DNA of 26,209 bases from Gemmatimonadota bacterium (lineage in GTDB: Bacteria; Gemmatimonadota; Gemmatimonadetes; Palauibacterales; Palauibacteraceae): NCBI GenBank assembly GCA_041610455.1, contig JBFIOX010000001.1, positions 1 through 26,209 of the forward strand. Reading direction: 5' to 3'. Within the stretch, counting starts at the first letter, position 1. Every line of letters begins with the position of its first letter. The notes under the pieces are model-generated. The model made no database searches. It had not been told where the DNA came from and worked only from the letters and a program-made list of their open reading frames with translations. This document shows, piece by piece, positions 571-20,028 of this stretch. A program made the position numbers and the translations under genes.

Positions 571-571
571 G

Positions 572-2203: not shown

Positions 2204-2218
2204 CAAGCGCGAGCGCGC

Positions 2219-3991: not shown

Positions 3992-4061
3992 GGATCAGCC
4001 ATCGTTGCCGGCCTGGGTCCGTAGGGGCATGTGTCCCGGGAATATACCGCCCTCACGCCCG

Positions 4062-4077
4062 AGCACATCCCGTGCCC
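4062..4077 (-). promoter_or_regulatory. Candidate sigma54 (-24/-12) promoter for the ABC/GT-C/VanZ unit
   Basis: Minus strand reads GGGCAC-GGGAT-GTGCT. GG-N10-GC spacing is correct, with GTGC instead of TTGC at -12. It lies ~70 nt upstream of the ABC start and points towards it. Confidence 0.4.
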
Positions 4078-4361
4078 GGATCCGGCGCGCTCCGGCCCGC
4101 CGCTCCGGGGCGTCGCGGAGCGGACCTCGGGCCGCCGCCGACGCGGGGTGCGGCCGCCAGGGTCGCCAAGGGGGCGGGCCAAGGGATTCACGGTGCGGTG
4201 AGCGTCCCGAGGGCTGCGGGCCGCCCGACCCGGCGAGACCGGGGCCTGACGCGCCCGGACCGTGGCCGCGGGACCACAGCCGCGGCCTACGTCGGCGACC
4301 GGCCCATGGGATGGCAGAACGGGCGCGAGGCGCGCCCGGGATCATGCCGTTCGAGGGAGAC

Positions 4362-4391
4362 GCGGGCGGGGAGCCGCGGCCCCCCGCCCGC
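4362..4391 (-). terminator. Strong hairpin just downstream of the Ig/beta-helix gene (no U-tract)
   Basis: GCGGGCGGGG (4362-4371) pairs with CCCCGCCCGC (4382-4391), 15 nt after the stop codon at 4407. Confidence 0.4.
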
Positions 4392-4406
4392 CAGATGGGT
4401 CCCGAG

Positions 4407-7220
4407 CTACCGCACCACGCCCGCGGTGGCGGCGTCCACCGCCGCCTTGTCCGCGCCCACGCCGGTGGGTCGGGTCGTCGGGCAAGACCAACCCGCTTCG
4501 CCCGAGTAGTTCCCGCAATTGTCGCCCACCGCGTAGTTGGCGGTGAACGTGTACGTGCTCCCGTACCACTGCGAGATCGCCCGGTTGCGCAGACCGTACG
4601 CCGTGCTCCCCTCGTGCAGCATGTTCTCGATCAGGAGGTTCTCGCCACTCACGTCCGTGACCTCGACCGACGTGTGCACGCCGGGGTTGATGGACGTGAT
4701 GTTCCGGATCGTCAGGTTGTGCGGACCGAGGATCTGGAACGTGCGTGACGTGGCGTCACCGTAATCCCCGTTCGGCCCGAGCTTCTCGATGATGACGTTC
4801 TCGATCAGCACGTCCTTGAGCGGCGTCGCTTCGGCGATCCCCGCGTTGAGCGAGAAGCCCATGTCCACGTTCCGCAGGATGTTGCGCTCGAACGTCACGT
4901 GCGCGGTGGGCGCGAACGAGGCGTCCTGCGCCTCCGGCGACGATTTCAACACGATCGAGGGCCCGTGCTGTCCGTCCCGCCAGTGGTTCTCGAACACGTT
5001 GCCCCAGATGTGGATGCGGAAGCCCGACTTGAGCTCGAACAGGTTCTTGATGACCCAGGGACCGCCGTGCCAGGACTTCGGGTGCCGCACGTGGTTGCGC
5101 GCGAACGTGATGTCCTGAGGCACGTTCGAGGCGCCCGAGATCCCCGCGCCGCCCGACATGAAGTTCTCCGAGCTGCCCTCGAGCAGGTTCTCGTAGATGA
5201 GGATCGGGCCAGGGGTGTTCCACACGAGCACGGCCTGGGAATCGAACCCCCTCTGGTGGCACTCCGTGACCACGGAGCGCAACAGCGCGAAGCCGGCCAC
5301 GTTGGCCATGAAGCAGCGCCGCAGGTCCCAGTTCGGATCGCCGGCGTGCACGTAGACGCGATCGAACACCATGCGGTTGATGACATCCGTCGCCGGGCTC
5401 GGGTGCAGGGCCACCATGGCGGTCGTGCCGTCCCAGCCGCCCGTGATCTCCAGCGTCTCGAAGCGCCAGCCGTGATCCCCGGGCTCGGAGGCGGACACCG
5501 TCGAGCAGACCGTTCCCGTGCAGGTCAGGACCGGGAAGTTCAGCGTCGAGTCGACGCGCACGTCCTTGGCCACGCTGGGCATGTCGCCCCGGATGGTCAC
5601 CCAGCCGCCGTCGTTGCGGGCGGGCAGGGTGAAGCCCTGCGAGCGGCTGTACGTCGTCCCGGGCGTGAGCAGGATCTCGTCCCCGGCCACGGCGTTGTCG
5701 ATGGCCGATTGGAGCTCCGCCGCCGTGGTCGCCCGGACGGTGCGGGTGGCGGTCGGCCTCACCGTATCGGGGATGGCGCGGGGCAGCTCCGGTCGGGACC
5801 AGCTCTCCGACGGCGGTGGCGCGCCGCCCCCGCCCCCGAGCTCCACCCAGATGGAGGCGGTGTCCTCCACCGCGCAGGCCGCGACCACGATGAGCGCGGT
5901 CCCCGCCGCATGGCCGATCACGCGCCCCACGGAATTCACTGTGGCCACTCCTGTCTCGGTGCTCCGCCAGGACGGGTTCGGACACTCGGCGTCCTGCCCG
6001 TTGGCGTCCTTCGGATAGATGGCGAGATGGGTCGAGTCATTGAGGCTCGGAATCGTGTCCGCGCTAGGCGTGACGTTGAGATCGATCTCTCCCACCCCGA
6101 CCGTGGCGAAGCCCTTCGCCCCGTTCGAGGCCGTGGCCGCGATCTGGGCCGTACCGGAGCCCTTCGCGGTCACTAGTCCGTTATCATCGACGTCCGCCAC
6201 GCCCGGACGGTCACTGCTCCATGTGAAACTGGAGCCTGGGACCTCGTGACCTTCGGCGTCAAGCCCGGACGCGGTGAGCTGTACGGCCTGCTCGGGGGCG
6301 CCCAGCGAGGTGTTGGCGGGGTCGATATCCACCGTCTCGACCATCTGCTCGACCACGATCTGGGCCCAACCCGCGCGCCCACGGTCACTTGCGGTGATGT
6401 CGGCGTTCCCCTCGGCGTGGGCCGTCACCACGCCGTTCTGGTCCACGGACGCCACGGATGGGTCCGAGCTCGTCCAGTTGAATCCGCTCGTCTGGGTGGT
6501 GTTACCGTCGGCGTCGGTGGCGGTGGCGGTCATCTGGACCTGGGCGCCGAGCGCCTTCAGGGTGTCCAGACCGGGCTCGATCGTGATGATGTTCTTGCCG
6601 CGGCGCACCTTCACCTGGCTCGAGTCGGAGCGGCCGCGCTTGCTGGCGAAGATCCTGACGTCGCCCTCGGCGCGCGCCGTGACCGTGCCCTGTTCGTCGA
6701 CCGAAACGACCCTCGCATCGGCGCTCCGCCACTGCACGGTGTTGCGCGGGACGCGGAAGCCGTTCTTGTCGCGGGCCTCGAAGCTCAGGGTGCGCCGCTG
6801 CCCGATCGCCTGGAGCGTGTCCTCGCGGGGCGAGACGGCGAAGAGCACGGGAACCTGGTCGACCTGGACCTTGGCACGCGCCCGGTCTCCGCTCGCGGAC
6901 ACCTCGATGGTGGCCGTGCCCTGAGAGACCGAGATCACGCGGCCGGCCCCGTCGATCTGCACGATGTCGGGGTCCAGGCTGCGCCATACGAAGCGGTTGA
7001 GATTGGAGGGCCGACCCTGGCCGTCGGTGCGCTGCGCGCGCAGCTGGCCGATCTCGGCGAGCGCATCGAGGTCCAGCCGCGACGGGAGGATCTTGATCTC
7101 GGACTTCTGAATCGGTACGGGGCCGAGGTGCTCCTCTCCCGTGCAACCGATGAACAGCCCGATGCCGATCGCTGCCAGCGCACCCCAGGTGCCCTTAGAG
7201 GGCGTCCGTCCGATACGCAT
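4407..7220 (-). CDS. Predicted lipoprotein with 5 Big_2-type Ig-like repeats and a C-terminal right-handed beta-helix (pectin-lyase-like) domain
   Basis: Signal peptide ending LFIGC (Cys codon 7145-7143). Five ~85-aa repeats with W-x-S-x-D...V-x-V-D-x-x-G-x-V-T-A. A GGGGGAPPP linker. Then ELQSAIDNAVAGDEILL and Asn/Ile-rich repeats (ENLLE, RNHV, GNVFEN, RNILRN) typical of parallel beta-helices. Start is ATG 7220 or GTG 7229. Confidence 0.8.
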   Translation of the reverse strand: MRIGRTPSKGTWGALAAIGIGLFIGCTGEEHLGPVPIQKSEIKILPSRLDLDALAEIGQLRAQRTDGQGRPSNLNRFVWRSLDPDIVQIDGAGRVISVSQGTATIEVSASGDRARAKVQVDQVPVLFAVSPREDTLQAIGQRRTLSFEARDKNGFRVPRNTVQWRSADARVVSVDEQGTVTARAEGDVRIFASKRGRSDSSQVKVRRGKNIITIEPGLDTLKALGAQVQMTATATDADGNTTQTSGFNWTSSDPSVASVDQNGVVTAHAEGNADITASDRGRAGWAQIVVEQMVETVDIDPANTSLGAPEQAVQLTASGLDAEGHEVPGSSFTWSSDRPGVADVDDNGLVTAKGSGTAQIAATASNGAKGFATVGVGEIDLNVTPSADTIPSLNDSTHLAIYPKDANGQDAECPNPSWRSTETGVATVNSVGRVIGHAAGTALIVVAACAVEDTASIWVELGGGGGAPPPSESWSRPELPRAIPDTVRPTATRTVRATTAAELQSAIDNAVAGDEILLTPGTTYSRSQGFTLPARNDGGWVTIRGDMPSVAKDVRVDSTLNFPVLTCTGTVCSTVSASEPGDHGWRFETLEITGGWDGTTAMVALHPSPATDVINRMVFDRVYVHAGDPNWDLRRCFMANVAGFALLRSVVTECHQRGFDSQAVLVWNTPGPILIYENLLEGSSENFMSGGAGISGASNVPQDITFARNHVRHPKSWHGGPWVIKNLFELKSGFRIHIWGNVFENHWRDGQHGPSIVLKSSPEAQDASFAPTAHVTFERNILRNVDMGFSLNAGIAEATPLKDVLIENVIIEKLGPNGDYGDATSRTFQILGPHNLTIRNITSINPGVHTSVEVTDVSGENLLIENMLHEGSTAYGLRNRAISQWYGSTYTFTANYAVGDNCGNYSGEAGWSCPTTRPTGVGADKAAVDAATAGVVR
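5844..7103 (-). repeat. Five tandem Ig-like (Big_2) protein repeats
   Basis: Repeats visible in the translation: FVWRSLDPDIVQIDGAG, VQWRSADARVVSVDEQG, FNWTSSDPSVASVDQNG, FTWSSDRPGVADVDDNG, PSWRSTETGVATVNSVG. Confidence 0.85.
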
Positions 7221-7328
7221 CCCCACCACCCCTTCCAGTTTCCGAGCTCATCGCGCGCCAGACATCGGTCTGGCCTGGAACCCCCTGCGCCGGGGACGCA
7301 GCCGCGGCGGGGGGCAGCGACTCGGGTC

Positions 7329-7344
7329 GGCAAGCGTTGTGCCC
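7329..7344 (-). promoter_or_regulatory. sigma54 (-24/-12) promoter for the Ig/beta-helix gene
   Basis: Minus strand reads GGGCAC-AACGC-TTGCC, matching the core GGCAC-N5-TTGC. It is ~100-110 nt upstream of the start, in a locally AT-richer intergenic segment. Confidence 0.65.
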
Positions 7345-7456
7345 ATCCAACAATCGGGGATTCGCGATGCTTCAAGTCACAGCGACAGAATGGGTTGCAT
7401 CACTTCATCCGTAGTGGCACGATTCTTGGCTCGCCGGTCCTGCGGGGGGAGCTGTG

Positions 7457-7498
7457 AAAAAAGGTCAGATGCCGACCCGGTGCGGAGGGGGGTCGGCA
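7457..7498 (-). terminator. Inverted repeat plus T6: candidate intrinsic terminator of the wzc-asnB operon (or activator site)
   Basis: TGCCGACCC (7470-7478)-N11-GGGTCGGCA (7490-7498). On the minus strand TTTTTT (7462-7457) follows after 7 nt. Confidence 0.45.
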
Positions 7499-7589
7499 AG
7501 TTGTAGCGTGCGCGGTGACTTGGGGGCCGGCCCGGCGCCTCGGAGGCGCCGGCCGCCGATCGGGGGCCGCGGAGGGTGCGGCTCCGGTC

Positions 7590-9506
7590 CTACGCGCTCG
7601 ACACTCCGGCGCGCGGTCGGGCCTCGCGTGCGCCGGCGACCTCGGACCGGGCGCTCGCAGACCTCTCGGCGGCCAGCCACAGCTCGAGGACCAGCAGCCG
7701 CCAGATCATGGCGCTGTGATCCCGGCGGCCGCTCCGGTGCTCGCGCACGAGCCTCGCGACCGCCCCGGGGAGGACGAAGTCGTACACGGCGGCCCGCGGC
7801 TCCAGGAGCTGATCGCAGCGCCACGCGAGCGCGTCCTTGAACCAATGACGCAGCGGGACGCCGAACCCCTGCTTGCGTTTCGTCAGGACGAAATCGGGCA
7901 CGAGGTCGGCGATGGCCCGCCGGAAGATCTTCTTGCCGCCACCCTCGCCCCACTTGAACGAGGAGGGGAGGCTGAAGGCGAACTCGGCCAGGTGGTGGTC
8001 GAGCACCGGCACGCGCGCCTCGAGCGAGACGGCCATGCTCATGCGATCGACCTTGGTGAGGATGTCCCCCGGCAGGTAGGAGAATGCGTCCACCAGCGTG
8101 GCCCGCGTCAGGGTCGTCCGACCCTCCGTGGCATCCCACCACCGCGCCAGGAGGTGGTCGAGGTCGCGGCCGGCCTCGGCGAGCTCCGGGCGCGCCACGC
8201 CCCCCTCGGCCTCGCCGAGGGCGGTGGCCACCATGCCCGCGTAACGGCCGGCGGTCGAGCGCGAGAGCTCTAGCAGCCGATTCCGCCCGTAGGCTCCGTG
8301 AGGGAGTCGGCGGGCCGCAAACCGGAGGAGCGCGCGGAGCGGCGCCGGGATGGCGACATCGCGGCGGGACAGCGCCCGGTATCGATCGTATCCGCCGAAC
8401 AGCTCATCGCCGCCGTCGCCGGACAGGACCACGGTCACGTGACGCCGCGCCAACTCCGACACGAGCAAGGTCGGGATCGCCGACGAGTCGGCGAAGGGCT
8501 CGCCGAAGGCACCCGCGACACGTTCGATGAGCGCGTCCACATCGGGACGGACGATGAGCTCGGTGTGCTCCGTGCCGAGGGCTTCCGCGACCCGCCGCGC
8601 GTCGGGGGCCTCGTTGAACTCGCGCTCCTCGAATCCGATCGAGAAGGTCTTGACGGGCCGGTCCATCTGTCGGGCCATCGCGGCCACCACGGCGCTCGAA
8701 TCGATCCCCCCCGAGAGGAAGGCGCCCAGGGGCACGTCGGCCACCAGGCGGTACCGCACCGCCTCGAGGAGCAGTCGGCGGATCTCCTCGGCCGCTTCGG
8801 GCTCCGTCAGGTCGTGCCGCTCCTCGACCAGCGGCGACCAATAGGGGGCCACGGTCGTCGCCCCGTCGCGCTCCCGAACCAACCGGTGCCCCGGCGGGAG
8901 CTTGCGGGCGGCGTCGTAGATCGATGCGGGGTCTGGCACGTACCCCAGCGCCAGGTAATCCGCCATGGCCCCCGCGTCCAAGGCGCGGGGGAAGTCGGGC
9001 AGCGCCCGCAGGGCGCCCAGCTCGGAGGCGAACGCCAACCCCCCGGGCCCGGCATCCCAGTAATAGAGCGGCTTGATGCCGAGCCGGTCGCGCACCAGGA
9101 GGAGCCGCTCGCGCACCTGGTCCCAGATGGCGAACGCGAACATGCCCCTCAGCCGTCGCGTGAGGTCGAGCCCGAACGCTTCGTAGGAGTGCACCAACAC
9201 CTCGGTGTCGCTCCGCGTGCGGAAACGGTGGCCGTCCGCCTCGAGTTCGCTGCGGATCTCCGCGAAGTTGTAGATCTCGCCGTTGAAGACGACGTGCACC
9301 GTGCCGTCCTCGTTCGAGATGGGCTGCGAGCCTCCGGCGAGGTCGATGATGCTGAGACGACGCATGCCCAGGGCCACGCGGTCCCCCACCAAAACGCCGT
9401 CCTCGTCGGGACCCCGGTGGTGGATGGCGACCGTCATGCGCTCGAGCTCCGCGGCGCGGCGCGCCGCATCCCCACGGCGGTCGACGAAGCCGGCGATTCC
9501 GCACAT
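7590..9506 (-). CDS. asnB: Asparagine synthase (glutamine-hydrolysing) family amidotransferase, polysaccharide-cluster type
   Basis: N-terminal MCGIAG (Ntn Cys), RGPD, FNGEIYN, PP-loop SGGIDS, SGDGGDELFGGY. GGAG RBS upstream. Confidence 0.93.
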   Translation of the reverse strand: MCGIAGFVDRRGDAARRAAELERMTVAIHHRGPDEDGVLVGDRVALGMRRLSIIDLAGGSQPISNEDGTVHVVFNGEIYNFAEIRSELEADGHRFRTRSDTEVLVHSYEAFGLDLTRRLRGMFAFAIWDQVRERLLLVRDRLGIKPLYYWDAGPGGLAFASELGALRALPDFPRALDAGAMADYLALGYVPDPASIYDAARKLPPGHRLVRERDGATTVAPYWSPLVEERHDLTEPEAAEEIRRLLLEAVRYRLVADVPLGAFLSGGIDSSAVVAAMARQMDRPVKTFSIGFEEREFNEAPDARRVAEALGTEHTELIVRPDVDALIERVAGAFGEPFADSSAIPTLLVSELARRHVTVVLSGDGGDELFGGYDRYRALSRRDVAIPAPLRALLRFAARRLPHGAYGRNRLLELSRSTAGRYAGMVATALGEAEGGVARPELAEAGRDLDHLLARWWDATEGRTTLTRATLVDAFSYLPGDILTKVDRMSMAVSLEARVPVLDHHLAEFAFSLPSSFKWGEGGGKKIFRRAIADLVPDFVLTKRKQGFGVPLRHWFKDALAWRCDQLLEPRAAVYDFVLPGAVARLVREHRSGRRDHSAMIWRLLVLELWLAAERSASARSEVAGAREARPRAGVSSA

Positions 9507-9525
9507 CAGGCGGCTCCCACGCCGG

Positions 9526-10425
9526 TCATTCGTACCCCCACCGGGCCAGCGTGGGCTGCAAGACCCCGCCCAGCGCGTCGGCCTGCCGAGCCGTCAGATC
9601 GGTTCGCCATCGCGATGCCGGAGCGCGCACCGCGCCGCGGCGCAGGGCCGCCGTGATGGATGCGGAGGCGTCCCACCCGGCGAAGCGCAGAATGTCGTCG
9701 ACGACGCCCGCCGGATTCGCGCACAGATCCTCGTACCGCACGTCGAGCCATCTCTCGCGTCCCACCTCCTCGGCGGCCGCCTCCATCGCCTCGAGGACGC
9801 GGCGCCACTGCATCCCCGCCAGCGCCACGAAGGAGCGCCCGTGCCGGTGCCACTCGGCTTCCTCCCGCGGCGAGAGCGGGCCGAATCGCCAGCCCACCGG
9901 TCCGTACCATCCGCGCCACCAGGGGACGGTGAGCAAGGAGCTGGCCACGTCGCGGCCATCGCGGACCAGGTGGACGAATCTCGCGCCCTCCAATATCGCC
10001 GCCAAGAAACCGGCGCGCGGCCACCCGGTGACCTTGATGAGTGGCGCTGGGCGCGACCGCGTGATCAGCCCGTCAAAATAGCCGTGCAGGCGGTCCCGGA
10101 CCCGGAGCGTGACATCTTCCGCGGTGAGGTCCCGACACGGCTCGGCGAAGCCGCGATAGTGATGGCCCCAGAACGCATAGCATTCGTCCGGTGGCCACTT
10201 GCGGCGGATCAGGACGCCGACCCCGGGCGCGGCGGCGGCCCGCACGACCCGTCGTTGACGCCCGGGCCGCTCGGGCGCGGCATCGCAAACGCGAGACAGC
10301 CACGAGGCGCTTTCGTGCCGCGCGAGCAGGCCGTGGAGGAGGGTCGAGCCGCTGCGCCCCACGCTCACGATCACGAGCGGCGCCCGCCGCTCGTGCTCAC
10401 CCGCGCGCGCCCGACCGGTGACCAC
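9526..10425 (-). CDS. PAPS-dependent sulfotransferase
   Basis: 5'-PSB motif GRSGSTLL, 3'-PB motif HLVRDGRDVASS, C-terminal RYEDL...P and W-x-x-x-L motifs. The start is uncertain: in-frame GTG 10425 is chosen because the ORF-track start (10683) overlaps the upstream gene. Confidence 0.85.
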   Translation of the reverse strand: MVTGRARAGEHERRAPLVIVSVGRSGSTLLHGLLARHESASWLSRVCDAAPERPGRQRRVVRAAAAPGVGVLIRRKWPPDECYAFWGHHYRGFAEPCRDLTAEDVTLRVRDRLHGYFDGLITRSRPAPLIKVTGWPRAGFLAAILEGARFVHLVRDGRDVASSLLTVPWWRGWYGPVGWRFGPLSPREEAEWHRHGRSFVALAGMQWRRVLEAMEAAAEEVGRERWLDVRYEDLCANPAGVVDDILRFAGWDASASITAALRRGAVRAPASRWRTDLTARQADALGGVLQPTLARWGYE

Positions 10426-10501
10426 CGGGGCGCGCTTCAGGGAATGCGGGGAAGCGCCGAGACGGGAACCGGACGGGAGACCGGCTTCCGCCGGTCGGTG
10501 C

Positions 10502-11920
10502 TCACGGAGCGGCCCCGACCGGACGCGACCAGCGCCGTTTCGCCGCGCGAGGGAAGGCAGTGGAAGCGATCGCCTCCCGGGACTCCCTCGACGCGGTCTG
10601 ACGCAGGCCCTCCGCCACGATCCCGAGCGTGGCGAGGTGTAGCCACACGAAGATCTGGTGCGCGTACGAGCCGAAAATGGCAACGACGAAGAACGCGTAG
10701 AGCGAGGCCTCGAGGTATTTCAACCTCGTCGCCTGAGTCGGGAACCTGGCGCCGTAGGCGAGCCGGTACCGCCTGGAGCGCGACAGCGCCATCACGAACG
10801 GGATGAGGAACAGCACGAGTCCCGGATAGCCCGTCTCGGCCAGCACGCGGAGGAAGGTGCTGTGCACATCTCGCCGACCGCCGGCGGTCATGGTCTCGGC
10901 GCTGTAATAGGTGTAAGCGCCGTGCGCCCAGTTGTAGGCCGACATCCCGACGCCGAACACGGGGTGATCGGTGATGATCCTCTGGGCTACGCCCCAGATC
11001 TCCCAGCGCTGGGCCGCGGATCCCATGTCGTTGGCCGCCGTCAGGTCCCGCTCGCGCACCGCGGAGGTGAGATCTCCGAAGCGGGCGAAGGTCCCGGCGG
11101 GCGCGAAAAGCACCGCCGCCGACCCCAGCAGGAACACGCCGACCATGGCGCGGGCCTGCTTGCGGTGGGCGAGCACCGTGAGCATGGCCAGCACGCCGAT
11201 CCCGAGGAACGCGCCCCGCGACTGCGTGAGGAGCACGACGAAGGGCATCACGGCCACCGAGGCGATGGCCCCCCGGCGGACCCAAAGGTTCGCGTCCTTG
11301 AGGAGTCCCGCGGCGATGCCCAGGGGGAGAAAGGTGAGGGCCGCCATGTCGTTCGGGTTGCCCCAGGCGCCGTTCCACACCACGCGGCTCGTGTTCTGGT
11401 AGGTGTAGCCGTACACGAACGTGTTGAAGAGAGCGCCGCGGATCGGGTGCGTGGCGTACAACAGGAGGAGGAACACCAGGAAGAACCGGATGCGCGCCTG
11501 GCTGGTCAGCACGTTGGCCGCCACCAGGCAGATGAGCCACAGCTTGCCGAACTCGAGGAAGCCTTCCTCCCACGCGATCGTCCGAAAGTCGCTCTGCGTG
11601 TAGCTGGCCGCGCCCCACAACACGAACGCGGCGAAGCCCACCAGCCAGAACGGAAGCCGCGGGCGCCGCTTCTCGAGGATCAGTCCGCCGAGGGCGACAC
11701 CGATCGCGATGGAGGCGCCCGGGAACCGATACGTGATGACGATGACGAGGTAGACCAGAAACGCGATGTAGGACAGGCTCCAGTCCACATCCCGGTAGAT
11801 GCGCTTCAGGCTCGAGGCCGGCAGTCGGGGCGATCCCCCCCGGGCCGGCCGCATGGCCGAAGGCCTCCAGGGAGCGGCCGGCGCGAGCGAGCGGGGCGGG
11901 ACACGCGGCGACATGGTCAC
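10502..11920 (-). CDS. O-antigen ligase / Wzy polymerase family membrane protein
   Basis: Multi-TM protein with GNPND, TQSRGAFL, the periplasmic R-x-x-x-W...P-x-F-G-V-G motif and H-S-T-F-L. The GTG start overlaps the upstream TGA (GTGA). Confidence 0.88.
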   Translation of the reverse strand: MTMSPRVPPRSLAPAAPWRPSAMRPARGGSPRLPASSLKRIYRDVDWSLSYIAFLVYLVIVITYRFPGASIAIGVALGGLILEKRRPRLPFWLVGFAAFVLWGAASYTQSDFRTIAWEEGFLEFGKLWLICLVAANVLTSQARIRFFLVFLLLLYATHPIRGALFNTFVYGYTYQNTSRVVWNGAWGNPNDMAALTFLPLGIAAGLLKDANLWVRRGAIASVAVMPFVVLLTQSRGAFLGIGVLAMLTVLAHRKQARAMVGVFLLGSAAVLFAPAGTFARFGDLTSAVRERDLTAANDMGSAAQRWEIWGVAQRIITDHPVFGVGMSAYNWAHGAYTYYSAETMTAGGRRDVHSTFLRVLAETGYPGLVLFLIPFVMALSRSRRYRLAYGARFPTQATRLKYLEASLYAFFVVAIFGSYAHQIFVWLHLATLGIVAEGLRQTASRESREAIASTAFPRAAKRRWSRPVGAAP

Positions 11921-13083: not shown

Positions 13084-15437
13084 GAGGTCTCGGCTTCCGC
13101 GTAGTAGTAGTAGTTCACGTACTGCTCGTAGTACGGCGCGTGCTCGGGCACGGCGTTCAACACCGCGCCCACGATGGGAAGGTCGACGTTGCCGAGCATC
13201 TCCAGCCGGCTGCGCGCCATGCCCTCCGATGTGGCGCCGGCGCGAAACACCATCACGACCTGGTCGCAGCGCTGCCCCAGGATGAGAGTGTCTGCCCCCG
13301 CCGCGAGGGGGGGGCCGTCGAGCACCACGACGTCGTAGCGCTCTCGCGCGTCGTCGAGGAACTGGTCGAGCTGCGTTCCCCCGATCAACTCGGCATCTCG
13401 CGACAGGGCACCCGAGCAGAGGATGTCCAGATTGGGGGTCTTGTGGGTCCGCACCACGTCCTCGAACGGCGCCCTGCCGGCCAGCAACTCGGTGAGGCCG
13501 GGCGAGCGCGGGAAGTCGAAGACCGTGTGCAGACGGCCGCGCCGCACGTCCGCGTCGACGAGCAGCGTTCGCAGGCCGGAGGAGGCGTACGAGATGGCCA
13601 GGTTCGCCGCCACCACCGACTTGCCCTCCCGGGGCGTCGAGCTCGTGATGAGCACCCGGCCGCCCGCGCCGCCGTGGGCGTGGGAGAGCTGCGTGCGGAT
13701 CGAGCGGAACGACTCGACGGCCACCGCGGCCGTCGCCTTGCTCGTCTTGGGCGCCTTCAGCTGGGGCACCACGCCCAGCAGGGGCAGCCCGAACTTGCCC
13801 GAGATGTCGTCGGGGTGGCGAATGCGCCGATCCATCCGGTCGCGCACCATCACGACGCCGACCGAGAGGCCGAGGCCGACCAGGGAGCCCAGCATGATGT
13901 AGAACGGGGGCAGCGTCTGCGGTACGGGGCCGCTGGGGGTGAAGGCCGAGTCCAACGGTTGAATGTTGGACATGGCCGTCTCTTCCATGAGCCGCGCCGC
14001 GTTGCGGCGCCCGAGCAGCGTGTTGTGCAGCTGTTCGGCCAACATGAATTGGCGCTCGAGGCGCGTCTGCTCGATGGTGCGGACGGGGATCTCCTGCAGC
14101 TCCTGCGCCCGCTCGCCGATCTGCCGGTCGAGCATGCCGGCCCGATTGCGCAGATCCGCCTGCAGCTCGCGGATCAGACCGGGCAGCTGCACCTCGTGCA
14201 CGTCACGGATCTGGGCCGTGATGGCCCGCACGTCGGGGTGGTCGCTCGTGTACGTGTAGAGCAGGGTCTGAAGCTGCAGGTCGAGCGAGTCGAGGTTGGC
14301 GATCGTCGCTCCGAGCGCGGGCGAGTTCGCGATCGAGGGCACCAGTCGCAGCCTCAGGACGTTGAGCTTCCCACCCTGGGTGCGGGCCGAGAGAATGGCG
14401 TCGAGCTCGGCCAGGTCGTTCTGGATCTGGTCGAGATCGGTCTGCTGCTGGAAGAACGTCTGGAAGAACGGATCGGGCGCCACGACGCCGCTCGGAAGCT
14501 GCCTCATCTGCGGCTCCCCCGGCTTCGTGATGGCGTCGACCTTGAATCGCTCCAGCGCCAGCTCCGCGGCCCGCAGCTCGCCCGCAGCCATCTCGGTCTG
14601 ACGGTCGAGAATCTCGACCTCCTCGTGAATTCGGCCGTTGGTCAGTCGCGTGGCCGTATCGAGGAAGCTCTCGACCAGGGCGTTGTGGAGGGCGGCTCCC
14701 TCTGCCGCATCGTGCCACACGAACTCCGTGAAGATCATGTTCGCGAGGTCCTCGAGCCGCACGGCGAGCGCGGCCCGCAGCGCGCCGGTGGCCGAGATGG
14801 GCGCGCTCACCTGGAACACGAGGTCTTCATCGAGCGCGCGCAGCTGCGCCGCGTCGGGTATCCAGTGGAAGCCCCGGGTGGCGCCGATCCCGTCGGTAAG
14901 CACCCCTTCCTCGACGAGCGCCTCCGCGTCGTCCTCGACCGCGAAGAGCTGGTATCGGTCGCCCTCCGCCAGCGCCAGCCGGTACACGCCGGGCAGCAAG
15001 TCGCCTCCGACCTGCAGCCCGCGGAGGATCGTGGCGGGCCCCTCGGGCGCCAGGCGCTGGACGTGCAGCCCGAACTCCCGGACCACCGGCTCCAACACCG
15101 CGTTGCTCAGGAACACGCCGACCCATCCCTGGCCCTGCAGCACCTGCCCGGCGCGAATCGGCCCCTGCTGCGCGTTGGGCCGCTCGAGCCACACGGATGC
15201 GCTCGTCCGATACATCGGCTGCGTCGTGCGCGAGTACGCGAACCCCAGCGACCCGCCGATGACCATGGCCAGCACGATGAGCCACAGCTTGTCGCGCAGC
15301 GCCGAAAGCAAGCGTCCCCACTCGGCCGATCCGGGATCGGCCGGCGCCGGGACGTATTGATACCGACCGACGGACTGGAGCTCCCCCTGCGCGTCGTCGT
15401 ACTGGACCGGTAGTGTGTCTCCCCGCTGATCGCTCAC
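13080..15437 (-). CDS. wzc: Wzc-type polysaccharide co-polymerase / BY-kinase
   Basis: Two TM helices around a coiled-coil periplasmic region. Walker A STPREGKS, A' LLVDAD, B VVLDGPP, and a C-terminal Tyr cluster YYEQYVNYYYY. GTG start at 15437 has a GAGG RBS and lies downstream of a sigma54 motif, so the ORF-track start at 15818 is too long. Confidence 0.92.
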   Translation of the reverse strand: MSDQRGDTLPVQYDDAQGELQSVGRYQYVPAPADPGSAEWGRLLSALRDKLWLIVLAMVIGGSLGFAYSRTTQPMYRTSASVWLERPNAQQGPIRAGQVLQGQGWVGVFLSNAVLEPVVREFGLHVQRLAPEGPATILRGLQVGGDLLPGVYRLALAEGDRYQLFAVEDDAEALVEEGVLTDGIGATRGFHWIPDAAQLRALDEDLVFQVSAPISATGALRAALAVRLEDLANMIFTEFVWHDAAEGAALHNALVESFLDTATRLTNGRIHEEVEILDRQTEMAAGELRAAELALERFKVDAITKPGEPQMRQLPSGVVAPDPFFQTFFQQQTDLDQIQNDLAELDAILSARTQGGKLNVLRLRLVPSIANSPALGATIANLDSLDLQLQTLLYTYTSDHPDVRAITAQIRDVHEVQLPGLIRELQADLRNRAGMLDRQIGERAQELQEIPVRTIEQTRLERQFMLAEQLHNTLLGRRNAARLMEETAMSNIQPLDSAFTPSGPVPQTLPPFYIMLGSLVGLGLSVGVVMVRDRMDRRIRHPDDISGKFGLPLLGVVPQLKAPKTSKATAAVAVESFRSIRTQLSHAHGGAGGRVLITSSTPREGKSVVAANLAISYASSGLRTLLVDADVRRGRLHTVFDFPRSPGLTELLAGRAPFEDVVRTHKTPNLDILCSGALSRDAELIGGTQLDQFLDDARERYDVVVLDGPPLAAGADTLILGQRCDQVVMVFRAGATSEGMARSRLEMLGNVDLPIVGAVLNAVPEHAPYYEQYVNYYYYAEAETS

Positions 15438-15502
15438 GAATCCCTCGACCTTGAACCCTTCCGTGGACCGGCGTCCGTTTCCCCGTGAACGCCGGACCCT
15501 GG

Positions 15503-15518
15503 AGCAATTATGGTGCCG
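15503..15518 (-). promoter_or_regulatory. sigma54 (-24/-12) promoter of the wzc operon
   Basis: Minus strand reads CGGCAC-CATAA-TTGCT, essentially the YGGCAC-N5-TTGCW consensus, 65 nt upstream of the wzc GTG. Confidence 0.78.
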
Positions 15519-15805
15519 GTGCAAGACACCCGATAACCCGCTTCCGCAAAGGGGTTTCGGGCTAGTCGAGCGGTGCGGCCGGTGTGCCCCGCGAAGCGCG
15601 TGTGGGGCCGACGCGACACGAGACCCCCGCCCCTGGTCCCCGCTCGCCGTGCGGCGGTACCCCGCGGCCGCGAGTTTGCGCCCCAGAAAGGTGCGGCGGG
15701 CAGGTCCCGGACGCCAATCGGCGGGCCGGCCCGTGCCTTGAACCGTCCCTGCGCGCGGGCGGGACGATAAGGGAACCGAGGGACTCGGGAGATCACGCGG
15801 AAGCC

Positions 15806-16894
15806 ATGCACATCGCACACGTGGTAGGCGCCAGGCCGAACTTCATGAAGATCGCGCCGGTCATGCGTGCCCTGGATGGCCGTGCGGGCTTACGCCAGAC
15901 CCTGATCCACACCGGGCAGCACTACGATGATGCCCTCTCCCGTCAGTTCTTCGAGCAGCTCGAGATCCCGGCCGCGGACGCCGATCTCGGCGTCGGATCG
16001 GGCGAGCAGGTGGAGCAACTGGCGCGCATGATGATGGCGCTCGCCCCGGTGCTGGCGGATCTCCGCCCGGACATCGTCCTCACCGTGGGGGACGTCAACT
16101 CCACCCTGGCCGCGGCCCTGGTCGCTTCCCGGCTGGGACTTCGCCTGGCGCACGTCGAGGCCGGCCTCCGGAGCCGCGATTGGACCATGCCGGAGGAGGT
16201 GAATCGCGTACTCACCGATCGGCTCAGCGACGTGCTGGTCACCACGGAGCCCTCCGCGCTGGAAAACCTGCTGGCCGAGGGCATCGACCGGCACAGGATC
16301 CACGCGGTCGGGAACGTGATGATCGACACGCTCGATCGATTCTACCCCAAGGCGAAGGCGCTGCGCGTGGCCGACTCCATCGGCGTGGCGCCGGGCGGAT
16401 ACGTCCTCGTGACGCTGCACCGGCCGCGCAACGTGGACGATCCGTCGCGGCTCTCGGCCTGGCTCGCGGCGCTCGCCCGGATTCCCGAGGTCTGCGGGGT
16501 CCCCGTCGTCTTCCCCGTGCACCCCCGCACCCGTGCCCGCATCGCGACGGCCGGTCTCGAGCCGGTGCTGGACGGCCTCGTCACCCTGCCGCCGCTCGGC
16601 TATCTGTCGTTCGTGAGCCTGCTGGACGAGTGCGCGACCGTCGTGACCGATTCGGGGGGGGTGCAGGAGGAGGCCACCGTGCTGGGCGTGCCCTGCCTGA
16701 CGGTGCGGCCCACCACCGAGCGCCCCATCACGGTTCGCGAGGGCACCAACCGACTGTTCGTGGATCCGCCGGATCGGCTCCCCGCCGCGGTCGAGGCGGC
16801 CCTCTCTCGACCGCGGCGACCCCATCGGCCGGAAGGGTGGGACGGACACGCCGCCGAGCGCATCGCGCGGGCGCTGGTCGGATCCGAGCCCTAG
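15806..16894 (+). CDS. wecB: UDP-N-acetylglucosamine 2-epimerase (non-hydrolysing)
   Basis: GARPNFMK, HTGQH, GDVNS, HVEAGLRS, PEExNR, TLHRP, DSGGxQEE motifs. ATG at 15806. Confidence 0.93.
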   Translation: MHIAHVVGARPNFMKIAPVMRALDGRAGLRQTLIHTGQHYDDALSRQFFEQLEIPAADADLGVGSGEQVEQLARMMMALAPVLADLRPDIVLTVGDVNSTLAAALVASRLGLRLAHVEAGLRSRDWTMPEEVNRVLTDRLSDVLVTTEPSALENLLAEGIDRHRIHAVGNVMIDTLDRFYPKAKALRVADSIGVAPGGYVLVTLHRPRNVDDPSRLSAWLAALARIPEVCGVPVVFPVHPRTRARIATAGLEPVLDGLVTLPPLGYLSFVSLLDECATVVTDSGGVQEEATVLGVPCLTVRPTTERPITVREGTNRLFVDPPDRLPAAVEAALSRPRRPHRPEGWDGHAAERIARALVGSEP

Positions 16895-17097
16895 GCGGCG
16901 CGTGGGTGGCCCACCTGCAACGCCCCCGTCGTGTCGACTCAGCATCCCGGCGTCACACAGGCACCCTGCACCCCCTCTTTCGGCCTCCGACGACACCCTC
17001 GGGCCAGCCGGGCGTAGAAGGCGCGCGACACCCGCCCTCGATGCGCTCCCGCGGGGTTGGACCCCGACCGACGATCGTCCCCTAATCGGCGCAGTTC

Positions 17098-17126
17098 TTG
17101 AACTTCTGCGTGTATCGCGGTACGAT
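17098..17126 (+). promoter_or_regulatory. Candidate sigma70-type promoter upstream of the NtrC-family regulator
   Basis: TTGAAC (17098-17103)-N17-TACGAT (17121-17126). Confidence 0.5.
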
Positions 17127-17404
17127 CGGGAAGGCCGTGCCCGCCCCCTCTCGCCCCCACGTCGGGGGGCACGAGGCGCGCTCGGCGGCCGGCCGAGGCC
17201 CGAGAATGCGCGCATTTTGTTGCGTTCGCGAGGCATTCGTGAGCCGAGAGCCCGGGGTGGGTGTGGCGGTTGTGCACGGCGCGGCGGCCGTGTCGGCCCC
17301 GTGCAGGTTGCACGACCGCGAGAGCATGTTGCCAGCGTGGAGAACCTCGGAGGCCCGCCTGCGGCGGCCTCTTCAGAGCTGAGGATCGGCGGGGGGTAGA
17401 GAAC

Positions 17405-18943
17405 GTGCGAATCGAAGCGCCGGAGGCGATGGACGGGCTGTCCGACGACGACCTTCCGGTCGACGATCTGGAGGAGTCCGGATCGACGATCCTCGGACCG
17501 GAGGAACGGCAGAGCATCCGGATCCTGGTCATCGACGACGAACAGAGCATCCTCGACAGCTGCGAATCGGTGCTGGCGGCGGACGGCTACCAGTGCGAGT
17601 GCGAGCGCAAGGCCGACGAGGCGCTGCACCGCCTCAAGAGTCAGACGTACGACATCGTGCTCATCGACCAGAGCATGCCGCAGGTGCACGGCCTCGACAT
17701 CCTCGCCGAGGTGCGGCAGCGGTCGCCGGCCACGATCCCCATCATGATGACCGGACACGCCACGACGGAGGCGAGCATTCGCGCCATGAAGGCCGGCGCC
17801 TGGGAATACGTGCCGAAGCCATTCACGGCCACCCAGCTGCTGGTCGTGATCGGGCGCGCCGCGTACACCCTGCTCCGACAGCGCACGCTCTCGGACTCTT
17901 CCAAGCGGGAAGGCGTGCTCGTCGACGGGCAGGTACGCATCCTCGGCGTCTCCAAGGCCATGAGACAGGCCGTCGAGACGGCCATGAAGGTCGCCAAGAC
18001 CGACGCCTCCGTGTTCATCACGGGTGACAGCGGCACCGGGAAGGAGCTCATCGCCCAATACATCCACTCCGAGAGCCGACGCTCGCGTAAGGCGTTCGTC
18101 GCGGTGAACTGCGCGGCCCTGCCCGGCGAGTTGCTGGAGTCGGAGATGTTCGGCCACCGGCGCGGTGTGTTCACCGGTGCGGTGCGCGACAAGCCGGGCC
18201 TCCTCGAAGTGGCCGACCAGGGGACTTTCTTCCTGGACGAGCTCGGCGAGATGCCGATGCCCCTGCAAGCCAAGCTCCTGCGGGTCCTCCAGGACGGCGT
18301 CATCCGGCGCGTGGGGAGCGAGAAAGACGACGCGGTCGTGGACGTTCGCTTCATCTCCGCCACCAACCGCGAGCCCGAGGAGGCCATCCGGGACGGCGCG
18401 TTGCGCCAGGACCTGTACTTCCGCCTCCGCGTGGTCCCCATCCACCTCCCGCCGCTGCGCGAGCGGCCCGAGGACGTGCCGGCGCTGATCAAGCACTTCA
18501 TCGATCACTTCTGGCGCCGGCATCAGCTGCCCGGGGCCATGCCGCCGCGCTTCGCGCCCGAGGCCATGGAGGCCCTGGTTCGGCACAGTTGGCCGGGGAA
18601 CGTGCGCCAGCTGCAGAACGTGCTCGAGCACCTCGTCGTCCTTTCCGAGGCCAACGAGGTCATCGGCACCGATCGCCTGTCCGTGCTCGAAGAGGGGCCC
18701 ACGGTCTCCCCGGCCCTGGCGGGGAGCGGCGGCTCGGTGGGGACCCTCATCGACTTCCACGCCCCGTTCCACGAGGCGAAGGACGCCCTCGTCGGACGCT
18801 TCGAGAGGGAGTACTTGGCCCAGGTGATCTCGCGCACCCAGGGCAACATGTCGGAGGCCGCGCGGCAGGCCGGCATCGACCGCACCACCCTGTATCGCCT
18901 CATGGACAAGCACGAGCTGTCCAAAGACGCGTTCGTCCAGTAG
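17405..18943 (+). CDS. sigma54-dependent response regulator (NtrC/AtoC family: REC-AAA+-Fis HTH)
   Basis: Receiver (IDDE...D-Q-S-M-P...TG...KP), Walker A GDSGTGKE, GVFTGA (GAFTGA loop), Walker B FLDE, WPGNVRQL, and HTH GNMSEAARQAGIDRTTLYR. Start is GTG 17405 or ATG 17429. Confidence 0.93.
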   Translation: MRIEAPEAMDGLSDDDLPVDDLEESGSTILGPEERQSIRILVIDDEQSILDSCESVLAADGYQCECERKADEALHRLKSQTYDIVLIDQSMPQVHGLDILAEVRQRSPATIPIMMTGHATTEASIRAMKAGAWEYVPKPFTATQLLVVIGRAAYTLLRQRTLSDSSKREGVLVDGQVRILGVSKAMRQAVETAMKVAKTDASVFITGDSGTGKELIAQYIHSESRRSRKAFVAVNCAALPGELLESEMFGHRRGVFTGAVRDKPGLLEVADQGTFFLDELGEMPMPLQAKLLRVLQDGVIRRVGSEKDDAVVDVRFISATNREPEEAIRDGALRQDLYFRLRVVPIHLPPLRERPEDVPALIKHFIDHFWRRHQLPGAMPPRFAPEAMEALVRHSWPGNVRQLQNVLEHLVVLSEANEVIGTDRLSVLEEGPTVSPALAGSGGSVGTLIDFHAPFHEAKDALVGRFEREYLAQVISRTQGNMSEAARQAGIDRTTLYRLMDKHELSKDAFVQ

Positions 18944-18996
18944 GAGCGGGACGTGCCGCGCCGTCGCCCCCGCGGGCCCACGGCCGGGGCCCTCGC

Positions 18997-20028
18997 GTGA
19001 ACGATCCCCGGAGACCCCGTCTGGCGGCGTCCGAGCCGGAGGCCCGGGACTCGTTCGACGGGCGCCGGATCGTCCGGGGGCTGGCTCCGGAGGTGCAGCC
19101 GGTCGCCCGCTACCTCCTCCGGCGGGTGGAGCAGGATCCCGAGATCGCGCCCCCGTCGGAGCCGCTTCCGCGCGCCTCGCTGGACGCCACCGTGGCGGCG
19201 GTGCGGGCGGTTCGAGAGCACCTGTTCGAGCTGGCCGAGCGCGACGCGCCCCCCCAACGCCTGCGGGTCTTCCACGGGCGGCTCGATCGCGAGTTCGCGG
19301 CCCTCGTGCGGGACTTCGTTGAGCGGCGCAGGGACGAATCGAGGGAGCTGCTGCGCGATGTGTCGCACGATCTGCGCTCTCCGCTCAACTCGATCCTGGT
19401 GCTGGCCGATGCGCTGGCCGGCGAGCACTCGGGATCGCTGAACGAGGTGCAGCAGCGCCAGGTCGGCGTGCTGTACGCGGCCACCGTGTCGCTCGTCGGG
19501 CTACTCAACGACCTCCTCGACGCGGCCCATCTGGATCGCGCGGAGGAGATCGACGTCGTGCGCGAGGCGTTCTCCGTCGAGAACGTGCTCGACCAGGTCG
19601 ATCGCCTCCTGGGACCGCTCGCGCGGAACGGCGCGGTCACGCTGGCGTTTCGGTTGGAGACGCTGGGCCCCCGAACCGGTGATCGGCGCATCCTCACCCG
19701 GGTTCTGCTCAATCTCGTGACGAACGCCCTACAGGCCTCCGAGCGGGGTGGATGGGTCGAGGTGCGGGCGTTCGAGGAGCGGTCGGGTTGGCTCACCGTG
19801 ACGGTCAGCGACAGCGGCACCGGGGGCGACCTGGAGCGGCTTCGCGCCCGTCTGAGCCGCGCGCTGCTGCCGGCGCCCGGGAGGCGGGAGGAGGGCTGGA
19901 CCCGGGGACTCGGGCTGGGGATCTGCGCGCGCCTCGTCGAGGCGACCGCCGGCGAGATCCGCGTCGATGCGGTGCCCGGCTCGGGGGGGTGCCGCTTCAC
20001 GCTGCACCTGCCGTATCCCCGCGACTGA
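18997..20028 (+). CDS. Cytoplasmic histidine kinase (HisKA + HATPase), no TM or recognisable sensor domain
   Basis: H-box SHDLRSPL, N-box LLNLVTNA, G1 DSGTG, G2-like RGLGL. The GTG start at 18997 avoids overlap with the regulator. Confidence 0.85.
   Translation: MNDPRRPRLAASEPEARDSFDGRRIVRGLAPEVQPVARYLLRRVEQDPEIAPPSEPLPRASLDATVAAVRAVREHLFELAERDAPPQRLRVFHGRLDREFAALVRDFVERRRDESRELLRDVSHDLRSPLNSILVLADALAGEHSGSLNEVQQRQVGVLYAATVSLVGLLNDLLDAAHLDRAEEIDVVREAFSVENVLDQVDRLLGPLARNGAVTLAFRLETLGPRTGDRRILTRVLLNLVTNALQASERGGWVEVRAFEERSGWLTVTVSDSGTGGDLERLRARLSRALLPAPGRREEGWTRGLGLGICARLVEATAGEIRVDAVPGSGGCRFTLHLPYPRD

What the first reader, a model, noticed from the sequence alone, without database searches (positions are those of the whole stretch)
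4062..20028. Self-contained sigma54 regulon: three -24/-12 promoters driving the glycan locus with an NtrC-type activator and kinase alongside
Seen in sequence: correctly oriented motifs precede all three minus-strand units: CGGCAC-N5-TTGCT (wzc operon), GGGCAC-N5-TTGCC (Ig/beta-helix gene) and GGGCAC-N5-GTGCT (ABC/GT-C/VanZ). A REC-AAA+-HTH activator and a histidine kinase lie directly next to the cluster. Established: sigma54 promoters need an enhancer-binding protein, and the proteobacterial PEP-CTERM/EPS systems use a comparable PrsK/PrsR logic. Inference: this is an analogous circuit, but the co-regulated surface protein is a lipoprotein with no PEP-CTERM tail and no exosortase is present in the window.
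Basis: partly seen in the sequence, partly recalled or inferred. Interest (0 to 1): 0.68.

Follow-up and report, generated by a model that had tools for sequence, protein, structure and literature searches.

The report
Sigma-54 promoters in a polysaccharide locus
An uncultured marine Gemmatimonadota bacterium appears to switch on three gene groups for a surface polysaccharide through sigma-54 promoters, with the likely activator and its kinase encoded next door; this is a known kind of switch and the scan has met it before in this phylum.

Summary
Three -24/-12 motifs lie on the minus strand at 15503-15518, 7329-7344 and 4062-4077. Each sits in non-coding DNA, 67-110 nt before the first gene of a minus-strand unit: wzc-GT4-wzy-sulfotransferase-asnB, the Big_2/beta-helix lipoprotein, and ABC/GT-C-like/VanZ.

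Each motif is the one conserved block in otherwise unalignable intergenic DNA of related Gemmatimonadota genomes. The wzc motif is kept in 10 of 10 loci, the other two in 3 of 3.

A REC-AAA+-HTH activator (17405-18943) and a soluble 343-aa histidine kinase lie divergently beside wzc in all close and several distant relatives. I also found an 18-bp dyad, TGTnGC-N6-GCnACA, at a fixed distance of 86-102 bp upstream of the wzc promoter in 9 of 10 loci. It is the likely activator site, but it is absent from the other two promoters.

So local control is well supported for the wzc operon only. The circuit is not self-contained. rpoN is missing from this 65%-complete assembly, although 30 of 30 relatives have it. 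The genome holds 8 activators and roughly 15-20 further sigma-54-like sites. PrsK/PrsR membership fails on the curated cut-offs.

The scan has reported this wiring before in other Gemmatimonadota. It is a new member of a known kind.

The parts
15503..15518 (-). Sigma-54 -24/-12 promoter of the wzc operon (CGGCAC-N5-TTGCT)
   Evidence: CGGCAC-N5-TTGC is kept 76-250 nt before wzc in all 10 genus loci, while the flanks do not align.
15601..15618 (.). 18-bp dyad TGTnGC-N6-GCnACA, the candidate activator (enhancer) site, starting 101 bp upstream of the -24 GG
   Evidence: TGT-N12-ACA occurs 8 times in 6 of 10 wzc upstream regions, at -86 to -116. Spacings N6-N18 other than N12 give 0-1 hits. The background predicts about 0.15.
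13080..15437 (-). Wzc-type chain-length determinant / tyrosine autokinase, first gene of the operon
   Evidence: Wzz, GNVR and AAA_31 domains; TIGR01007 over its cut-off.
7590..13083 (-). Rest of the wzc operon: GT4 (11917-13083), Wzy_C polymerase/ligase-like (10502-11920), sulfotransferase (9526-10683, true start probably later), AsnB-type amidotransferase (7590-9506)
   Evidence: The genes overlap or abut. Best NCBIfam hits are XrtA-associated families, all below their cut-offs.
7462..7497 (-). Terminator-like hairpin with a T-run after asnB
7329..7344 (-). Sigma-54 -24/-12 promoter of the Big_2/beta-helix lipoprotein gene (GGGCAC-N5-TTGCC)
   Evidence: GGCACAACGCTTGC is identical in the window, L003 and L004, inside diverged flanks.
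4407..7220 (-). Lipoprotein with a lipobox, 4-5 Big_2 domains and a C-terminal right-handed beta-helix
4062..4077 (-). Sigma-54-type promoter of the ABC/GT-C-like/VanZ unit (GGGCAC-N5-GTGCT), the weakest of the three
   Evidence: GGCA(C/T)G(G/A)GATGTGC is kept in L003 and L004. The L003 variant GGCAT breaks the possible hairpin but keeps GG and GC.
1..3991 (-). ABC exporter (2219-3991), 9-TM GT-C/PMT_2-like protein (572-2206) and VanZ-like protein (1-714, cut by the contig end)
17405..18943 (+). NtrC-type enhancer-binding protein (REC-AAA+-HTH_8)
   Evidence: It is 73-88% identical in 11 loci and always divergent from wzc.
18997..20028 (+). Soluble histidine kinase, 343 aa, with no TM segment or recognised sensor domain
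17095..17313 (+). Activator gene leader: sigma-70-like TTGAAC-N17-TACGAT (17095-17126), half-dyad TGTTGC box (17218-17235), palindrome GTGCA-N3-TGCAC (17301-17313)
   Evidence: The boxes are kept at similar distances in most orthologous loci.
15806..16894 (+). UDP-GlcNAc 2-epimerase, inserted between wzc and the activator in this genome and in L014, L015 and L018

Best explanation
The window holds a Wzy/Wzc-type exopolysaccharide locus of a marine Gemmatimonadota MAG. Its three minus-strand transcription units each start from a sigma-54 (-24/-12) promoter. The divergently encoded REC-AAA+-HTH activator is presumably phosphorylated by the adjacent soluble kinase. It most likely binds the 18-bp dyad TGTnGC-N6-GCnACA about 100 bp upstream of the wzc promoter and drives open-complex formation there. 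That would turn on wzc, a GT4, a Wzy-like polymerase, a sulfotransferase and an amidotransferase. The lipoprotein gene and the ABC/GT-C-like/VanZ unit have their own conserved sigma-54 promoters and are probably co-induced, but their activator site is not identified.

Shown: the motifs, their placement and their conservation; the domain make-up; the synteny; and the dyad at wzc. Inferred: sigma-54 use, activator binding, phosphotransfer, and co-regulation of units 2 and 3.
For: - Three motif hits against 0.31 expected, all correctly oriented and in non-coding DNA.
- The motifs are the only conserved blocks in the orthologous intergenic regions.
- Genome-wide, GGCAC-N5-TTGC falls in non-coding DNA in 5 of 8 cases, against 0-1 of 8-11 for spacings N3, N4, N6 and N7.
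- Consensus-scored sites are 37% non-coding at the canonical spacing, against 14-20% at other spacings.
- rpoN is present in 30 of 30 relatives, including 18 of 18 in the genus.
- The activator is 73-88% identical and divergent from wzc in 11 loci, even where wzc is only about 41% identical. The same layout holds at about 49% identity in Gemmatimonadales.
- The dyad sits at a fixed distance in 9 of 10 wzc promoters, and only the N12 spacing occurs.
- No sigma-70 consensus promoter is found in 1-20000.
- A terminator separates units 1 and 2.
Against: - rpoN was not found in this 65%-complete assembly.
- No RNA run was listed, so no transcription start site is known.
- The dyad is absent upstream of the Big_2 and ABC promoters, where the best matches have 3-5 mismatches.
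- No other motif is shared by the three classes.
- The ABC -12 element is GTGC, and GGCAC/GTGC can pair as a short hairpin.
- The window's activator reads GVFTGA instead of GAFTGA. All relatives have Ala there, and so do contigs laid from four metagenome runs.
- Seven other activators are encoded in the genome.
Confidence: 0.7

Rival explanations
1. All three promoters use sigma-54, but the local activator controls only the wzc operon. The lipoprotein gene and the ABC/GT-C-like/VanZ unit answer to one or more of the other activators in the genome.
For: The dyad is found only at wzc. Only the wzc-activator pairing is conserved across the phylum, while units 2 and 3 occur in just three genomes. 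The assembly encodes 8 activators. The Big_2 upstream region has its own conserved box, CAAGAAnCGTkCCA.
Against: No other activator gene lies on this contig. In known polysaccharide loci such as syp, one locus-encoded activator serves all operons (PMC10162802). A degenerate or distant site could have been missed.
Confidence: 0.35
2. The ABC-unit motif (4062-4077) is not a promoter. It is a short conserved hairpin or a chance match, and the unit is read from another promoter or by read-through from the lipoprotein gene.
For: The -12 element is GTGC, not TTGC. GGCAC and GTGC(C) are complementary, and several genome-wide GTGC-class hits are obvious palindromes. Hairpins lie between the two genes.
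Against: The GG and GC positions and the 5-nt spacer are kept in L003 and L004. The L003 change C to T weakens the hairpin. The motif lies 72 nt before a conserved start codon.
Confidence: 0.2
3. The motifs are chance GC-rich matches, and the locus is transcribed by the housekeeping sigma factor.
For: 70% GC makes GGCAC and TGC common. rpoN is not in the assembly.
Against: Shuffle control, spacing controls, and cross-genome conservation restricted to the motif. All relatives carry rpoN.
Confidence: 0.05

Closest known systems
Vibrio fischeri syp locus with SypG (18 genes, four sigma-54 operons, activator and kinase encoded in the locus; PMC10162802 citing Yip 2005 and Ray 2013)
   Same: It is a polysaccharide locus split into several sigma-54 units. 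A REC-AAA+-HTH activator and a histidine kinase are encoded in or beside it.
   Different: In syp, one activator is known to serve all four operons. Here a conserved dyad is seen at one promoter only. The kinase is a short soluble protein, not a hybrid membrane kinase. The phylum and gene content differ, and nothing is tested experimentally.
PrsK/PrsR/PrsT with the sigma-54 'PEP-CTERM box' of proteobacterial exosortase systems (Haft 2006, PMC1569441; RpoN-dependent pepA, PMC9850573)
   Same: It combines an NtrC-type regulator, a kinase and sigma-54 promoters in an EPS setting. A single-gene surface-protein unit follows a long gap. The biosynthesis genes hit XrtA-associated families best.
   Different: TIGR02915, TIGR02916 and TIGR02917 scores all fall below their cut-offs. 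The kinase has no membrane or sensor part. No exosortase or PEP-CTERM was found in this genome, nor in the two genomes with the same locus type. The surface protein is a lipoprotein.
Sigma-54-wired EPS loci of Gemmatimonadota reported earlier in this scan (e1-2319380, e1-2126238, e1-1202754, e1-3629228) and the palindrome GTTGCG-N4-CGCAAC (e1-2132701)
   Same: It is the same phylum, with the same wzc / divergent activator / soluble kinase unit. The dyad found here (TGTnGC-N6-GCnACA) contains that palindrome's half-sites.
   Different: This genus-level clade carries an exosortase-free locus type, and it has a lipoprotein beta-helix gene and an ABC/GT-C-like/VanZ unit under their own promoters.
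NifA-type upstream activator sequences (TGT-N10-ACA; from my own knowledge, not checked here)
   Same: A TGT...ACA dyad sits about 100 bp upstream of a -24/-12 promoter.
   Different: The spacing is N12, not N10. The regulator is a response regulator, not a GAF-domain activator.

Membership tests
Sigma-54 (-24/-12) promoter | GG and GC dinucleotides exactly 10 nt apart in a TGGCAC-N5-TTGC-like context | tested here: met
   Two sites have GGCAC-N5-TTGC and one has GGCAC-N5-GTGC.
Sigma-54 (-24/-12) promoter | Non-coding, correctly oriented, a short distance before a gene start, and conserved in orthologous regions | tested here: met
Sigma-54 (-24/-12) promoter | rpoN present in the genome | tested here: inconclusive
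   Not found in the 65%-complete assembly. Present in 30 of 30 relatives.
Sigma-54 (-24/-12) promoter | Transcription start about 12 nt downstream of the -12 GC, dependent on rpoN | not testable with these tools
   No RNA run was listed.
NtrC-type bacterial enhancer-binding protein | REC + AAA+ sigma-54 interaction domain + Fis-type HTH | tested here: met
   PF00072, PF00158, PF25601 and PF02954.
NtrC-type bacterial enhancer-binding protein | Intact GAFTGA sigma-54 contact loop | tested here: inconclusive
   The window reads GVFTGA. 14 of 14 relatives have GAFTGA. Contigs laid from four runs read C at 18168, which gives Ala.
NtrC-type bacterial enhancer-binding protein | Upstream activator site about 80-150 bp before the promoter | tested here: met
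   Met for wzc only: a dyad at -86 to -102 in 9 of 10 loci. Not met for the Big_2 and ABC promoters.
PrsK/PrsR/PrsT PEP-CTERM regulatory system | Regulator scores over the TIGR02915 cut-off (502.6 bits) | tested here: not met
   351.6 bits. No protein is over the cut-off in G000, G001, G042, G018 or G004.
PrsK/PrsR/PrsT PEP-CTERM regulatory system | Transmembrane kinase over the TIGR02916 cut-off (300 bits) | tested here: not met
   56.6 bits, covering the catalytic domain only. No TM segment.
PrsK/PrsR/PrsT PEP-CTERM regulatory system | PrsT TPR protein (TIGR02917) | tested here: not met
   Best score 66.6 bits in G000 (77.1 across the five genomes), against a cut-off of 312.2.
PrsK/PrsR/PrsT PEP-CTERM regulatory system | Exosortase and PEP-CTERM proteins in the same genome | tested here: inconclusive
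   No exosortase in G000, nor in G001 (92% complete) or G005 (90% complete), which have the same locus type. Five other genus members have one. The PEP-CTERM search has no working control.
syp-like locus-wide sigma-54 regulon | One enhancer motif shared by all promoters of the locus | tested here: not met
   No motif is shared among the three promoter classes.

The most novel reading that the evidence does not exclude
The unit of wzc, a sigma-54 promoter with the TGTnGC-N6-GCnACA dyad, a divergent activator and a sensor-less soluble kinase may be a phylum-wide master switch parked at the edge of a hypervariable polysaccharide island in Gemmatimonadota. The kinase has no input domain of its own, so it may read the state of the Wzc tyrosine-kinase/polymerisation machinery, or another cytoplasmic cue. 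That would close a feedback loop between polymer export and transcription of whatever glycan cassette sits there, with or without an exosortase.
Probability: 0.12. Interest if true: 0.55.

Novelty: new member of a known kind. Interest (0 to 1): 0.3.

Why it matters
Gemmatimonadota are abundant in soils and sediments but little studied, and nothing is known experimentally about how they control their surface polysaccharides. This locus offers concrete things to test: three promoters, an 18-bp candidate activator site, and a conserved activator-kinase pair beside a variable glycan island. It would extend the general link between sigma-54 and the bacterial exterior (PMC3162934) to another phylum. 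The design itself is familiar from syp/SypG and PrsK/PrsR, and other windows of this scan have already described it in this phylum.

Tried and rejected
- Shared enhancer for all three promoters. I tried 9-mer enumeration with one mismatch (no better than shuffles), dyad enumeration, inverted-repeat search, the GTGCA-N3-TGCAC palindrome (only one exact copy, in the activator leader) and GTTGCG-N4-CGCAAC (not above chance). Only the later TGT-N12-ACA scan gave a clear result, and only for wzc.
- The box TTCAAGAAnnGnGCC. Its copy at 17088-17102 turned out to be the -35 region of a sigma-70-like promoter of the activator gene. Its likeness to the Big_2 upstream box is unexplained.
- Start-site mapping. 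No RNA run was listed.
- The GGCAC-N5-GTGC class as genome-wide evidence. I rejected it because GGCAC/GTGCC palindromes and codon-phase effects confound it.
- An exact dyad elsewhere in the genome. There are two hits, on C12 and C17. The C12 copy lies downstream of a candidate promoter, and the C17 copy is 119 bp before a weak motif at a contig end. Both are inconclusive.
- A sigma-54 motif upstream of wzc in the about-49%-identity Gemmatimonadales loci L019-L024. No clear motif was found.
- Exosortase linkage. In G042 the orthologous activator borders a 40-kb exosortase EPS locus. However, a second, different activator lies next to the exosortase end, so I do not claim that the window's activator is the exosortase regulator.
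Full report
**What is in the window.** The window is a whole 26.2-kb contig of a 2.48-Mb, 355-contig assembly that is 65% complete. It has about 70% GC. Titles of orthologous records place it in uncultured Gemmatimonadota, and near-identical contigs occur in marine metagenome runs. At this GC content long shadow ORFs abound. The 1340-aa plus-strand frame 2-4024 has no family hits, while the minus strand there encodes an ABC exporter.

I built the gene map from codon-position GC, Pfam and NCBIfam.

Minus strand:
- VanZ-like, 1-714, cut by the contig end
- 9-TM protein, GT-C/PMT_2-like by the protein atlas, 572-2206
- ABC exporter, 2219-3991
- lipoprotein with Big_2 repeats and a right-handed beta-helix, 4407-7220
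- AsnB-type amidotransferase, 7590-9506
- sulfotransferase, Wzy_C protein, GT4
- Wzc, 13080-15437

Plus strand:
- UDP-GlcNAc 2-epimerase, 15806-16894
- the activator, 17405-18943
- a histidine kinase that most likely starts at GTG 18997 (343 aa, no TM segment)

**The observation.** GGCAC-N5-KTGCY matches three times, against 0.31 expected. All three matches are on the minus strand and in non-coding gaps. The -12 GC lies 67 nt before the wzc start, about 110 nt before the lipoprotein start and 72 nt before the ABC start. A hairpin with a T-run follows asnB, so units 1 and 2 are separate. No sigma-70 consensus promoter is found in 1-20000.

**Conservation.**
- I fetched orthologous loci from genus members and from public genome contigs.
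- CGGCAC-N5-TTGC(T/G/C) precedes wzc in all ten loci with a close activator, even where Wzc is only about 41% identical and the intergenic DNA cannot be aligned.
- The locus type of this window, with the lipoprotein and the ABC unit, exists in two other genomes (L003, L004).
- GGCACAACGCTTGC is identical in all three. GGCA(C/T)G(G/A)GATGTGC is kept before the ABC gene. In both cases it is the only conserved block.
- Contigs from four metagenome runs show no variant inside any of the three motifs.

**Is sigma-54 used by this organism?**
- rpoN domains are not found in the assembly, but 30 of 30 relatives have the gene, including 18 of 18 in the genus. The assembly encodes 8 sigma-54 activators.
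- I used loss of codon periodicity as a proxy for non-coding DNA (15% of the genome).
- GGCAC-N5-TTGC is non-coding in 5 of 8 cases, against 0-1 of 8-11 for spacings N3, N4, N6 and N7.
- With a consensus score, 37% of sites at the canonical spacing are non-coding, against 14-20% at other spacings. That is an excess of about 15-20 sites.
- Genes behind such sites include a GT2, another beta-helix protein, a cupin, two GGDEF-EAL proteins, a pilin-like protein and a LuxR-type regulator, along with evident false positives.
- So sigma-54 is very likely active here, and the locus is one part of a larger regulon, not a closed one.

**The activator and its link to the locus.**
- The protein has REC, AAA+ sigma-54 interaction, lid and HTH_8 domains.
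- It belongs to no curated equivalog. Its best score is the generic NtrC model at 395.6 bits (cut-off 558.6), and PrsR scores 351.6 (cut-off 502.6).
- Orthologues are 73-88% identical in 11 loci. They always sit between the kinase-IMPDH-SLT backbone and a divergent wzc, or an epimerase plus wzc.
- Activators at about 49% identity in Gemmatimonadales are also divergent from a wzc.
- The conserved unit is therefore wzc / promoter / activator / soluble kinase, at the edge of a variable glycan island.

**A candidate enhancer.**
- General k-mer and dyad searches across all three promoter classes gave nothing above shuffles.
- The dyad enumeration hinted at TGT...ACA arms. An earlier scan note (e1-2132701) had proposed GTTGCG-N4-CGCAAC in Gemmatimonadales.
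- A direct scan then showed TGT-N12-ACA eight times in six of the ten wzc upstream regions, at -86 to -116 from the -24 GG. Spacings N6-N18 other than N12 give 0-1 hits.
- The full dyad is TGTnGC-N6-GCnACA, with 0-1 mismatches in six loci and 2 mismatches at the same place in three more. In the window it lies at 15601-15618.
- The background rate in non-coding DNA of this genome predicts about 0.15 occurrences in the 3 kb searched.
- A half-dyad, TGTTGC-N6-GAnGCA, is conserved in the activator's own leader, downstream of a conserved sigma-70-like promoter. This fits autoregulation, but it is only suggestive.
- The dyad is absent upstream of the lipoprotein and ABC promoters. The lipoprotein gap has a different conserved box.
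- The local activator is therefore well tied to the wzc operon. It is tied to the other two units only by proximity.

**Relation to exosortase systems.**
- The biosynthesis genes hit XrtA-associated NCBIfam families best, but below their cut-offs.
- No exosortase was found in this assembly, nor in G001 and G005, which share the locus type. Five other genus members have one.
- In G042 the exosortase lies in one continuous ~40-kb EPS locus, with an XrtA-type deacetylase and a FemAB protein that score over their cut-offs. That locus ends at the wzc divergent from the orthologous activator, and it carries several sigma-54-like motifs of its own.
- A second, different activator sits next to the exosortase end in G042, G004 and G018.
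- No PrsR or PrsT reaches its cut-off in any of five genomes. The kinase matches PrsK only in its catalytic domain.
- The Prs comparison thus holds as an analogy (PMC1569441) but not as family membership. The multi-operon syp/SypG locus (PMC10162802) is the closer functional model.

**A caveat on the activator.**
- The window encodes GVFTGA (Val255, codon 18167-18169).
- All 14 relatives examined have GAFTGA.
- Contigs laid at that position from four marine runs, including a 741-nt contig that differs from the window at one base only, read C at 18168, which gives Ala.
- The Val is thus a strain variant or an assembly error. I could not confirm from the literature held here what this substitution does.

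**Verdict.**
Local control is well supported for the wzc operon and plausible for the rest.
- The design is known, and the scan has already reported the same wiring in other Gemmatimonadota.
- The additions here are the exosortase-free locus type with a separately promoted lipoprotein beta-helix gene, the placement of the dyad at wzc, and the finding that the other two promoters lack it.

Noticed in passing
window 18167-18169: The activator's sigma-54 contact loop reads GVFTGA (Val255, GTG). All 14 relatives have GAFTGA. Contigs from four marine metagenome runs read C at 18168, which gives Ala. This is a strain variant or an assembly error at a functionally critical residue.
   Followed up: yes
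window 17095-17313: The activator gene has a roughly 280-nt leader. It holds a conserved sigma-70-like promoter (TTGAAC-N17-TACGAT), a conserved TGTTGC-N6-GAnGCA box and a perfect GTGCA-N3-TGCAC palindrome. These are possible autoregulatory sites.
   Followed up: partly
window 7400-7432; L003 and L004 upstream of the Big_2 gene: A conserved box, CAAGAAnCGTkCCA, lies about 85-110 bp upstream of the lipoprotein promoter. On the opposite strand it reads like a -24/-12 look-alike ending in TTGG or TTGA. Its role is unknown.
   Followed up: partly
window 15460-15503: A 15-nt-arm inverted repeat lies immediately downstream of the wzc -12 element, in the predicted 5' leader. Relatives also show leader hairpins, but without sequence conservation.
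   Followed up: no
window 1-714: The window is the whole contig, and the VanZ-like gene runs off its end. No outer-membrane exporter, priming transferase or flippase is in view, so the locus probably continues on another contig.
   Followed up: no
G042:C10:17024-61300 (L083, L084, L005): In a sister species a ~40-kb exosortase EPS locus is bracketed by two different sigma-54 activators. Three of its internal candidate promoters share GGCAAGGAAC(A/C)TGC.
   Followed up: partly
G000:C17:14725-14858: An exact copy of the dyad (TGTGGCGCTCGCGCGACA) lies 119 bp before a weak sigma-54-like motif, in an AT-richer stretch at a contig end. The downstream gene is not assembled.
   Followed up: partly
window 2-4024 (+): A 1340-codon open frame antisense to three real genes has no family hits. 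It is a high-GC shadow ORF that could mislead gene callers.
   Followed up: yes
window 4407-7220: The C-terminal ~460 aa of the lipoprotein is a right-handed beta-helix. Its atlas look-alikes carry PEP-CTERM, Por_Secre_tail or Big_2 parts in other phyla, so the same head appears with different surface-anchoring signals.
   Followed up: partly
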